A stretch of 64,000 bases of DNA, from positions 1 to 64,000 of IMG/VR virus record IMGVR_UViG_3300042562_002450. One strand, given 5' to 3'. A program made the position numbers and the translations under genes. Every line of letters begins with the position of its first letter. Within the stretch, counting starts at the first letter, position 1. This stretch comes from a virus. Shown here one piece after another: positions 7,869 to 62,812 of this stretch. The notes below the pieces were generated by a model, which was given only the letters and a program-made list of their open reading frames with translations, made no database searches and had not been told where the DNA came from.

Positions 7869-8034
7869 AGAAAAGCCAAGGATAGGTGATATGATTTCTC
7901 TTTTTAATAATGGAACAAAAATAAATGTTACTGTTTACAAAATGTCTGAACATCATATAACATTCACAATGAAAGATAAAAAGTTGTGGTGCATGACTTG
8001 GAGTGATTTTTTTAATAAAAAAGAAGGATATTAA
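7837..8034 (+). CDS. Hypothetical protein
   Basis: 65 aa ORF; start uncertain. Confidence 0.5.
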   Translation: MIIQIMTFMTKEKPRIGDMISLFNNGTKINVTVYKMSEHHITFTMKDKKLWCMTWSDFFNKKEGY

Positions 8035-8337
8035 ATGACAACAGAAACTGAAGTAAATAAAACCATTAACAAAGTTGTATTCGTAACTGCTCCATGGTGT
8101 CAACCATGTGCCGCTTATAAGCCAAATATTGATTCTGCATCGGCTTCTATTAAGTCTTATGGATATGCTATTGAATACATTAATGCAGATGAAGATAGAC
8201 AATTTTGCAAAGACTATTTAATTCGTGGTGTTCCTTCAACACTAATCTTCCATGGAGATAAAGTTGTTGAGCAATTTGCAGGTAATAAAACAAAAGAAGA
8301 ATTACTAGAAAAGATATATAAAGTTTCAGAAATCTAG
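8035..8337 (+). CDS. trxA: Thioredoxin
   Basis: WCQPC active site; GVPS cis-Pro loop. Confidence 0.85.
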   Translation: MTTETEVNKTINKVVFVTAPWCQPCAAYKPNIDSASASIKSYGYAIEYINADEDRQFCKDYLIRGVPSTLIFHGDKVVEQFAGNKTKEELLEKIYKVSEI

Positions 8338-8529
8338 TGCTTATATTTTTTTAAGTTCTGCTGTAAATGCAGGATACCTTAAAACTTTTATAAGTAATTA
8401 GACCGTCTTGGTCACGCGGATACGAACTGCCCGAAAGGGTCTACTCCCCCTCAGCATTGCGTCTCAGGCCATAGTAGGACCAATTTTATTTAAGTATAGA
8501 TGCTAAAAACATCAACGGTTTTATTAAAT

Positions 8530-8680
8530 GGGGGATTAGCTTAGCTGGTAAAGCAACTATGGATGAAAAAAGAAGTGGCGAAATTCGTAAAGTACTCAAG
8601 AGATAGCTTCTCTTAATAGTCGCGGAAAGTTAACTAGTCTGTAGATAAGATCGGAGGTTCGATTCCTCTGTCCCCTGCCA
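8530..8680 (+). ncRNA. tRNA-like RNA with about 75 extra nt in place of the anticodon arm
   Basis: Acceptor GGGGGAT/GTCCCCT, G+CCA, D arm GCTT/AAGC, T arm GGAGG-TTCGATT-CCTCT; 151 nt. Confidence 0.75.
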
Positions 8681-8742
8681 ATAAAAACCCAGTCACTTTG
8701 GCTCTTTGAGTAAAATTAAATCATACAAATTGGAGTCAGGAG

Positions 8743-8907
8743 ATGAGTAAAACGAATATACTAATATTAAAATTAGCTATGTTGGGTTTTGTATTGGGAA
8801 CAATACTAAGTTACATACTGGGGACTCAGCTCTTTAATATCTCTGCCTACATAGCTATTCCAATAGGAATGCTTGCTGGGATTTGTTCACCTTTTATTGG
8901 AGAGTAG
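8743..8907 (+). CDS. Small two-helix membrane protein (54 aa)
   Basis: AGGAG RBS; two hydrophobic segments; not in the ORF track. Confidence 0.6.
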   Translation: MSKTNILILKLAMLGFVLGTILSYILGTQLFNISAYIAIPIGMLAGICSPFIGE

Positions 8908-8934
8908 TATGAAAAAAATAAATAGGAGAAGAGA

Positions 8935-9228
8935 ATGAGAAAAGGTTGGATAATTACAAAAAATTACTTAGAGTCGCGCAATGAAAAAACATTTACTGAA
9001 GTTTCAATCATTGGACCTTCTCTTACTACTCTTACTAAAGAACAAATAGTACTTGGTCATCCATTCAAAATGTTTGATGATGATGATGTTCTTTGTTATG
9101 AAGGATATCTTTATGCTGATAAAAACTCAGAAGATGGGTTTATGCCATTAGATAACTATGGCACGCCAGATGCTGGGTGTACGTATGTTCAATATAAAAA
9201 TGAAATTGGTGAATGGAAAACATTGTAA
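8935..9228 (+). CDS. Hypothetical phage protein
   Basis: AGGAG RBS; FKMFDDD..LCYEG motif. Confidence 0.65.
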   Translation: MRKGWIITKNYLESRNEKTFTEVSIIGPSLTTLTKEQIVLGHPFKMFDDDDVLCYEGYLYADKNSEDGFMPLDNYGTPDAGCTYVQYKNEIGEWKTL

Positions 9229-9306
9229 TCTATAGAATACAACGCTAATATTTTAATGTGATATTTTTAAATATGTTAAAATTTTCTCTAGGGGAGAAGT
9301 TTTAAT

Positions 9307-11854: not shown

Positions 11855-11889
11855 TATAGATAGTGCTCAGTTAGGTGAGAACAAGATTC

Positions 11890-12174
11890 GGATGCCTTGA
11901 CCCAAAAAGTCCTAAACAAGTGGTGATGGTATGCTCCCCTGTTGTCAGTACGGTTGCTGAATGTAACGTAGGCTATTAACGGTTGAATTCCTTAGTGCAC
12001 CTTAAGTGGTTTTTAACTAACTATTCAACGTTCTGCTAATAGGTAAACTGACCCTGTCGACATGTAACATATGGTTCTAGTAGTAATAGAGCAAGTTGTT
12101 AGGTGGCAACGGCTACGTTGCATTCTAAATGAAAAAATAAGCCTATGCGAGTTAAAATCTCGCGGAGTCCAACA
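11890..12174 (+). ncRNA. Candidate large tRNA-ended structured RNA (tmRNA-like architecture)
   Basis: T-arm-like GCGAG-TTAAAAT-CTCGC then GGAGTCC-A-ACA; GGATGCC 5' end; 13-bp helix 11959-71/12113-25. Confidence 0.45.
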
Positions 12175-12192
12175 ATACATTAAAGGTTATAT

Positions 12193-34166: not shown

Positions 34167-34235
34167 AGCACATAGGGTCATGCCCTATCCGACGAGTGGT
34201 AATCGTGACAAGGGGTGAGAGAGCCTCACATTTTA

Positions 34236-34312: not shown

Positions 34313-34599
34313 TTCTTTATAGTATCTATAAAGACAATAATACTTTTAAAACCACCGCTCACTGCCGTTACGTGTCGTGCCTAACTACACTAACGTTCAC
34401 TTAGGTTTTAAAACATGCGACAGCATATTTTTGTTAATTGTATTAAGAGACCCAGTCGACGGTACATACAATAACATAATCAATATAAATGGTTCGCAAA
34501 ACGTTGCACTTGTCCTTAGGACATTTGCTCACCAATCAATGGGGGACAGTGATGTTCCCCAATATGATTTCAAATTAAATAACTAAACAAAAGGTCTAT

Positions 34600-62725: not shown

Positions 62726-62812
62726 TAAAAAGATAGTGTCACCTACGACGAGCCTCATCTTAGTGGCCGTGCCTAGTGGTGAGTGAGGGGACGCTGCAGC
62801 GAACATATAAAT

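What the first reader, a model, noticed from the sequence alone, without database searches (positions are those of the whole stretch)
8530..8680. tRNA shell whose anticodon arm is replaced by an insert containing a 15-codon ORF
Seen: near-canonical acceptor, D and T arms with encoded CCA, but 151 nt long. Immediately after the D arm, ATG (8559) opens MDEKRSGEIRKVLKR-TAG (8606). The stop sits in a hairpin AAGAGA/TCTCTT, and ACTAT/ATAGT closes the domain. Known: tmRNA combines a tRNA-like domain with an internal ORF whose stop lies in a hairpin, but it lacks a D stem and has G3:U70 (absent here); the insert is too short for a group I intron. Inference: a mini tmRNA-like RNA, an enzymatically spliced tRNA, or a tRNA decoy for anticodon nucleases.
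Basis: partly seen in the sequence, partly recalled or inferred. Interest (0 to 1): 0.72.

Follow-up and report, generated by a model that had tools for sequence, protein, structure and literature searches.

The report
Anticodon-less tRNA-shaped gene in a phage
A large uncultured phage carries one gene with a flawless tRNA "top half" and CCA end but about 98 ordinary-looking bases where the codon-reading arm should be; it cannot decode, its small reading frame is at chance level, and it is one more orphan among the tRNA-like genes with inserts that recur in phages.

Summary
The tRNA shell at 8530-8680 (+) is real. Rfam's tRNA model scores 32.8 bits, all 16 acceptor, D and T pairs form, the elbow nucleotides are canonical, and CCA is encoded as in the phage's six normal tRNAs.

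- An ATG frame of 15 or more codons occurs in 30-40% of 151-nt windows.
- A 6-bp hairpin occurs in 60% of shuffles.
- ACTAT/ATAGT loses to an 8-bp helix (8557-8564/8637-8644, p about 0.9; 3% of shuffles).

The insert has background composition (36% GC against 34% for the genome and 57% for the shell). It folds no better than shuffles (z -0.4).

No single deletion restores a canonical anticodon arm. The same test restores one in 21 of 31 other phage "long tRNAs" I collected.

It is not a tmRNA: it has G3-C70 and a full D arm, no tmRNA model matches it, and the phage has no SmpB. The phage also has no Ro60, RtcB, Rnl1/2 or EndA, and its genetic code is standard. I found no homologue anywhere.

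Best reading (0.45): a non-decoding, tRNA-processed small RNA like T4 RNA C/D. Rivals: a crippled tRNA gene (0.3) and a spliced tRNA (0.1). This scan has noted many such phage RNAs on other DNA. Interest is low to moderate.

The parts
8530..8536 (+). acceptor stem, 5' strand
   Evidence: Pairs 7 of 7 with 8670-8676 (G1-U72 and U7-G66 are wobbles); RF00005 alignment.
8537..8554 (+). U8 and A9, then the D arm: 4-bp stem 8539-8542/8551-8554 and an 8-nt loop with A14, G15, G18, G19 and A21
8555..8652 (+). 98 nt in place of nucleotide 26, the anticodon arm and the variable loop
   Evidence: 36% GC against 34% for the genome and 57% for the shell. MFE z is -0.4 to -0.5. No canonical anticodon arm can be recovered. 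No match to the ACAGCAA insert family.
8557..8564 (+). 5' strand of the 8-bp closing helix, which acts as an extended anticodon stem
   Evidence: Pairs with 8637-8644. Pair probability 0.87-0.90 with the shell enforced. P = 0.03 in shuffles.
8637..8644 (+). 3' strand of the 8-bp closing helix
8598..8614 (+). 6-bp hairpin with a 5-nt loop that holds the TAG
   Evidence: Pair probability about 0.95, but a hairpin this long occurs in 60% of shuffles.
8559..8606 (+).
   Evidence: Present but at chance level. No Shine-Dalgarno sequence is apparent. The ATG lies inside the closing helix.
8653..8669 (+). T arm: 5-bp stem and the canonical TTCGATT loop
8670..8680 (+). acceptor 3' strand, discriminator G73 and encoded CCA
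   Evidence: All six normal tRNAs of this phage also encode CCA.

Best explanation
This is a phage gene for a tRNA-shaped RNA that cannot decode.

Shown here:
- The acceptor, D and T arms, the elbow nucleotides, G73 and CCA are all canonical.
- In place of the anticodon arm there is a long, weakly structured, A/U-rich arm. It consists of an 8-bp helix, internal loops and a terminal hairpin.

Inferred:
- It is transcribed with its + strand neighbours.
- RNase P cuts its 5' end (there is a U at -1) and 3' trimming stops at the encoded CCA, as for the six true tRNAs. That would leave a stable RNA of about 151 nt.
- It cannot enter translation as an adaptor.
- Any activity comes from its tRNA top half: being bound by, or competing for, proteins that recognise the acceptor end and elbow. 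It may also simply serve as a processing site between the thioredoxin gene and the downstream genes.

Its experimentally known counterparts are the T4 small RNAs C and D, which come from the T4 tRNA cluster and whose roles are still unknown.
For: - Shell: RF00005 scores 32.8 bits, 16 of 16 stem pairs form, and U8, A14, G18, G19, T54, T55, C56 and A58 are present.
- CCA is encoded, as in all six phage tRNAs, and -1 is U, as in 5 of the 7 genes.
- Shell GC is 57%, like the true tRNAs (49-68%); the insert is 36%.
- No canonical anticodon arm can be recovered. The same test recovers one in 21 of 31 other phage long tRNAs, against 7% of shuffles. So this is not a simple recent insertion, yet the shell is unblemished.
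- The closing helix sits where the anticodon stem belongs (P = 0.03).
- T4 rnaC also ends in a T arm plus acceptor and is an expressed RNA of unknown role (PMC3014915, PMC9697503).
Against: - It is a singleton. I found no homologue, so there is no conservation or covariation evidence.
- The insert has background composition and folds no better than shuffles. A maintained structured cargo would not be expected to look like this.
- No partner protein is evident; there is no Ro60/TROVE.
- I could obtain no expression data.
Confidence: 0.45

Rival explanations
1. It is a crippled tRNA gene. A once-normal phage tRNA lost its anticodon arm to an insertion or rearrangement and is now functionless DNA that has not yet decayed.
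For: - The insert's GC equals the genome background and it has no fold signal.
- No homologue exists. The nearest phages by the neighbouring ATPase gene carry no tRNAs at all.
- The ORF and the hairpin are at chance level.
Against: - A single insertion should leave both halves of the old anticodon arm next to it, and none is recoverable. That implies several changes in the middle while not one of the 16 shell pairs or the conserved elbow nucleotides changed.
- The closing helix is longer than chance would give.
Confidence: 0.3
2. It is an intron-bearing tRNA. The insert is removed, by host or unknown enzymes or by itself, to give a decoding tRNA, like the 'enigmatic introns' of Lak megaphage tRNAs.
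For: - Inserts in phage tRNA genes are common (PMC6784885).
- ARAGORN in intron mode proposes Ala(CGC) with a 58-nt intron.
Against: - The ARAGORN model needs a mismatched anticodon stem, an intron between nucleotides 32 and 33, and a 22-nt non-canonical variable region.
- No single deletion gives a canonical arm.
- No ribozyme or intron family matches, even at E of 10 or below.
- The phage has no EndA, RtcB or Rnl1/2.
- The genome uses the standard code, so no suppressor tRNA is needed.
Confidence: 0.1
3. It is mainly a punctuation signal. The tRNA-like top half serves only as an RNase P and 3'-end processing site that separates upstream from downstream mRNAs, and the middle is an unconstrained spacer.
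For: - Only the parts RNase P needs are intact: acceptor, T arm, elbow and CCA.
- The middle looks unconstrained.
- It sits between same-strand genes and no promoter or terminator was detected.
Against: There is no direct evidence. Normal tRNAs elsewhere in the genome would do the same job. This reading overlaps with the best explanation.
Confidence: 0.1
4. It is a mini-tmRNA whose 15-codon frame is translated by trans-translation.
For: It combines a tRNA-like domain with an internal frame whose stop codon lies in a hairpin loop.
Against: - G3-C70 and a full D arm.
- No tmRNA call from ARAGORN or Rfam.
- No SmpB gene.
- The frame is at chance level.
- It starts with ATG 4 nt after the D stem and inside a helix, which from the known geometry of tmRNA is far too close to the elbow to reach the decoding centre.
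- The tag would end in KVLKR.
Confidence: 0.02

Closest known systems
Phage T4 small stable RNAs C and D (rnaC, species 1, 139 nt; rnaD, species 2, 119 nt)
   Same: They are encoded among phage tRNA genes, are 120-140 nt long and do not decode. rnaC ends in a canonical T arm plus an acceptor-like stem. Their roles are unknown (PMC3014915, PMC9697503).
   Different: There is no sequence similarity. rnaC matches tRNA models only weakly (17.5 bits, E 0.85), whereas this element has a complete acceptor, D arm, T arm and CCA (32.8 bits). The T4 RNAs are known to be expressed; this one is not.
Phage tRNA genes with inserts: the 'enigmatic introns' of Lak megaphages (Devoto et al. 2019, PMC6784885) and the long tRNAs collected here (L085-L203)
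   Same: Both have a tRNA body, perfect acceptor pairing across an insert of 50-100 nt in the anticodon arm, and a phage origin.
   Different: Most of those keep a complete anticodon arm (21 of 31) and score 40-54 bits on RF00005. This one has none. Its insert does not match the ACAGCAA insert family.
Canonical bacterial and phage tRNA (Rfam RF00005)
   Same: The acceptor, D arm, T arm, tertiary-pair nucleotides and CCA are all present.
   Different: There is no 5-bp, 7-nt anticodon arm, and the length is 151 nt.
tmRNA (RF00023)
   Same: A tRNA-like domain combined with internal sequence.
   Different: It lacks G3-U70, has a full D stem, has no pseudoknots, has no model match, and is 151 nt against 260-400 nt.
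YrlA / bacterial Y RNAs (RF02553; PMC4201824)
   Same: A tRNA-like module that RNase P can cut, in an RNA that does not decode.
   Different: In YrlA the RNA ends lie in the Ro-binding stem, not at the acceptor. There is no RF02553 match. The GNCGAAN0-1G motif is missed by one base. The phage has no TROVE/Ro60 gene.

Membership tests
tRNA (RF00005) | Acceptor, D and T arms with the conserved tertiary nucleotides | tested here: met
   32.8 bits against a gathering score of 29; 16 of 16 pairs form.
tRNA (RF00005) | Anticodon arm: a 5-bp stem and a 7-nt loop with U33 and R37 | tested here: not met
   The CM skips 17 model positions. No contiguous arm is found.
Intron-containing tRNA | Removing one contiguous insert restores a canonical cloverleaf | tested here: not met
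   No solution with one or two nucleotides at position 26 and a variable loop of 3-8 nt. Only non-canonical solutions appear when the limits are relaxed. The same test works in 21 of 31 other phage long tRNAs and in 7% of shuffles.
Intron-containing tRNA | A known self-splicing core, or splicing enzymes encoded by the phage | tested here: not met
   No Rfam intron or ribozyme match at E of 10 or below. No EndA, RtcB or Rnl1/2 (the Rnl1 search had no positive control).
tmRNA | G3-U70 alanine identity pair | tested here: not met
   G3-C70.
tmRNA | Match to tmRNA models (pseudoknots, tag frame with a resume codon, reduced D arm) | tested here: not met
   ARAGORN's tmRNA mode and Rfam give nothing here. 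A true phage tmRNA in L172 was detected at 98 bits, so the method works.
YrlA / Y RNA | RF02553 match and a neighbouring Ro60 (TROVE) gene | tested here: not met
T4 RNA C/D-type stable RNAs | A stable, processed, non-decoding RNA made from a phage tRNA region | not testable with these tools
   The architecture is comparable.
ACAGCAA-type insert family of phage tRNAs (seen here) | An A-rich stretch, a 7-8 bp hairpin and the ACAGCAA motif, inserted between nucleotides 28 and 29 | tested here: not met
   An HMM built from 12 members finds L117 at E 4e-9 but finds nothing in this insert even at E of 1000 or below.

The most novel reading that the evidence does not exclude
The element is a maintained, non-decoding tRNA mimic. 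Its intact acceptor end and elbow are used either to soak up a host protein that attacks or senses tRNA ends, or as an aminoacylated donor kept out of translation. That would be a phage counter-measure of a kind not yet described.
Probability: 0.15. Interest if true: 0.65.

Novelty: new member of a known kind. Interest (0 to 1): 0.3.

Why it matters
Phage genomes hold many tRNA-shaped genes that cannot decode, or that are interrupted, and not one has an established function; the T4 RNAs C and D have been unexplained for decades. This element adds a clean example with a perfect tRNA top half and CCA but no anticodon. It is an orphan with no conservation or expression evidence, so on its own it cannot move that question forward. 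The more useful by-product is the survey. It shows that many phage tRNAs carry inserts at exactly one place, between nucleotides 28 and 29, drawn from at least two insert families. That points to a common but unknown mechanism of insertion or removal.

Tried and rejected
Searches for a homologue of the element:
- DNA search of 8000-9300 against the phages collection: no match.
- Exact and gapped patterns in viral contigs: nothing relevant. One search gave nothing. One search gave normal tRNA-Lys genes followed by extra T-arm minihelices. One search gave one unrelated GC-rich hit.
- 80 loci syntenic by the ATPase gene: no similar element. The 11 closest records hold no tRNA at all.
- DNA polymerase relatives: 32% identity in viral contigs and below 40% in the phages collection.
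- Genome contigs, 5' half of the shell: 0 hits.
- Repeats of the insert in its own genome: only short chance matches. The 15-nt match at 128203 lies in coding DNA.

Other attempts:
- Isoacceptor identity of the shell, compared with 797 phage tRNAs: no clear answer.
- Stop-codon recoding, which could explain a need for a suppressor tRNA: rejected, because code 11 gives 82-100% coding cover throughout.
- Folding of the GC-rich patches upstream of this element and of tRNA-Arg, Gln and Asp: no signal.

Full report
**Context**

The window is the first 64 kb of a 198,626-bp IMG/VR virus record with about 34% GC, estimated 89% complete.
- It is a large tailed-phage-like genome with family B DNA polymerase, GroEL, ribonucleotide reductase and a primase-helicase.
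- Almost all genes are on the + strand.
- The genetic code is standard.
- It has six ordinary tRNA genes, all within the window and all with encoded CCA.
- It has no close relative in the collections I could reach. The best DNA polymerase match was 32% identity in viral contigs and below 40% in the phages collection.

**Observation**

All the listed features are present at the stated coordinates.

Rfam's tRNA model matches 8530-8677 end to end at 32.8 bits (gathering score 29). The match has 88 nt where the model has its 17-nt anticodon arm.
- The acceptor stem (7 pairs, two of them G-U), the D stem (4 pairs) and the T stem (5 pairs) are all paired.
- U8, A14, G15, G18, G19, A21, T54, T55, C56, A58 and C48 are in place.
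- G73 and CCA follow.
- ARAGORN calls the gene only in intron mode, as Ala(CGC) with a 58-nt intron. That model has a mismatched anticodon stem, an intron between nucleotides 32 and 33, and a 22-nt irregular variable region, so it is unconvincing.

**What is and is not beyond chance**

- The 15-codon frame (8559-8606) is unremarkable. 40% of shuffles and 30% of random 151-nt windows of this genome hold an ATG frame at least as long, and another frame of the element holds 17 codons.
- A 6-bp hairpin arises in 60% of shuffles.
- With the shell enforced, ACTAT/ATAGT has a pair probability of about 0. An 8-bp helix, 8557-8564 with 8637-8644, has about 0.9. A helix that long between the insert's ends occurs in 3% of shuffles. 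It sits where an anticodon stem should start.
- The 98-nt middle has 36% GC, the same as the genome background, while the shell has 57% and the true tRNAs 49-68%.
- The predicted stability of the middle equals that of shuffles, z about -0.4.

**Can it become a tRNA?**

I removed every possible single segment and asked for a 5-bp stem and a 7-nt loop with U33 and R37. I allowed one or two nucleotides at position 26 and a variable loop of 3-8 nt. There was no solution. Relaxed searches gave only non-canonical geometries.

As a control I scanned IMG/VR for a common D arm and T loop separated by 72-100 nt.
- Of the 119 or more hits, 45 have a perfect 7-bp acceptor stem spanning the insert, giving 32 distinct sequences.
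- After excluding one artefact made of two adjacent tRNAs, 21 of 31 give a canonical anticodon arm in the same test, against 7% of shuffled inserts.
- Those score 40-54 bits on RF00005.

So phage tRNA genes with inserts are common, in line with the "enigmatic introns" of Lak megaphages (PMC6784885). This element belongs to the minority that has no anticodon at all. Its insert does not match the largest insert family seen in the survey.

- tmRNA fails on every defining feature I could test: G3-C70, a full D arm, no model match and no SmpB in the phage. A real tmRNA in locus L172 was detected by the same tool, so the method works.
  - The ATG lies 4 nt after the D stem and inside the closing helix. 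From the known geometry of tmRNA on the ribosome, that is too close to the elbow to reach the decoding centre. This last point is inference.
- Splicing is unsupported. No canonical product is possible, no ribozyme or intron family matches, and the phage has no EndA, RtcB or Rnl1/2.
- A decoy for anticodon nucleases is unlikely because there is no anticodon loop.
- A Y-RNA reading also fails: no RF02553 match and no TROVE gene (PMC4201824).

**Comparative evidence**

There is none. All of the following failed:
- pattern scans;
- syntenic loci;
- whole records of the nearest relatives, which hold no tRNAs at all;
- the phage database.

**Interpretation**

The unblemished shell, next to a middle that cannot be explained as one simple insertion, argues mildly for selection on the tRNA top half. 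The background composition of the middle, its lack of fold signal and its orphan status argue for an unconstrained or dead middle.

- My best reading (0.45) is a non-decoding, tRNA-processed small RNA that works, if it works at all, through its acceptor end and elbow. The experimentally known analogues are T4 RNA C and RNA D. They are expressed from the T4 tRNA cluster and are still of unknown role (PMC3014915, PMC9697503).
- A crippled tRNA gene comes next (0.3).
- A pure RNase P punctuation signal (0.1) and a spliced tRNA (0.1) follow.
- The tmRNA reading is about 0.02.

The earlier notes of this scan list many tRNA-like phage RNAs with a replaced anticodon arm on other DNA. None shares sequence with this one.

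**Verdict**

The feature is real, an orphan, and a new member of a known but unexplained kind. Interest is low to moderate.

Noticed in passing
L161:765-888(-), L182:905-1029(+), L151:6128-6249(-), L190:6854-6982(-), L170:4117-4246(+), L105:2058-2180(+), L172:4101-4226(+), L203:1104-1234(-), L180:11045-11194(+): In unrelated phage contigs, tRNA genes (Lys-UUU, Asn-GUU and others) carry 45-77 nt inserts at exactly the same place, between anticodon-stem nucleotides 28 and 29, and the inserts usually start with TA. There are at least two insert families. One has an A-rich stretch, a 7-8 bp hairpin and ACAGCAA. The other ends in GTTACTTC. The pairs 27-28/42-43 covary between L161 and L182. No Rfam family matches these inserts.
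   Followed up: partly
window 8400-8486 (core 8427-8450); L216:4145-4168: A patch of 50-60% GC lies 45 nt upstream of the element. It shares a 24-nt identical core, a GNRA hairpin followed by a C-rich tail, with a noncoding GC-rich region of a marine Patescibacteria MAG contig that appears to end in a terminator-like hairpin. The flanks do not align, no Rfam family matches, and there is no fold signal.
   Followed up: partly
window 34167-34235 and 62735-62812: Similar GC-rich noncoding patches (55-60% GC) lie directly upstream of tRNA-Arg and tRNA-Gln. They show no sequence similarity to each other and no fold signal.
   Followed up: partly
window 11886-12178: A roughly 290-nt intergenic region with a T-arm-like hairpin near its 3' end and an imperfect acceptor-like closing helix. 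Its MFE z is -2.4 and no Rfam family matches. Another reader of this scan has also noted it.
   Followed up: partly
window 34313-34400: The stretch directly downstream of tRNA-Arg folds far better than shuffles (z -3.6), including a 9-bp A/U hairpin.
   Followed up: no
L204-L209 (for example L204:4465-4618): In six gut-type phage contigs a normal tRNA-Lys(UUU) is followed immediately by two further T-arm-like minihelices.
   Followed up: no
L172:5605-6001: A phage contig that carries a long tRNA also encodes a full tmRNA (RF00023, 98 bits).
   Followed up: no
L171:476-606 and 763-889; L161:957-1077(-): Some contigs carry two long, insert-bearing tRNA genes side by side.
   Followed up: no
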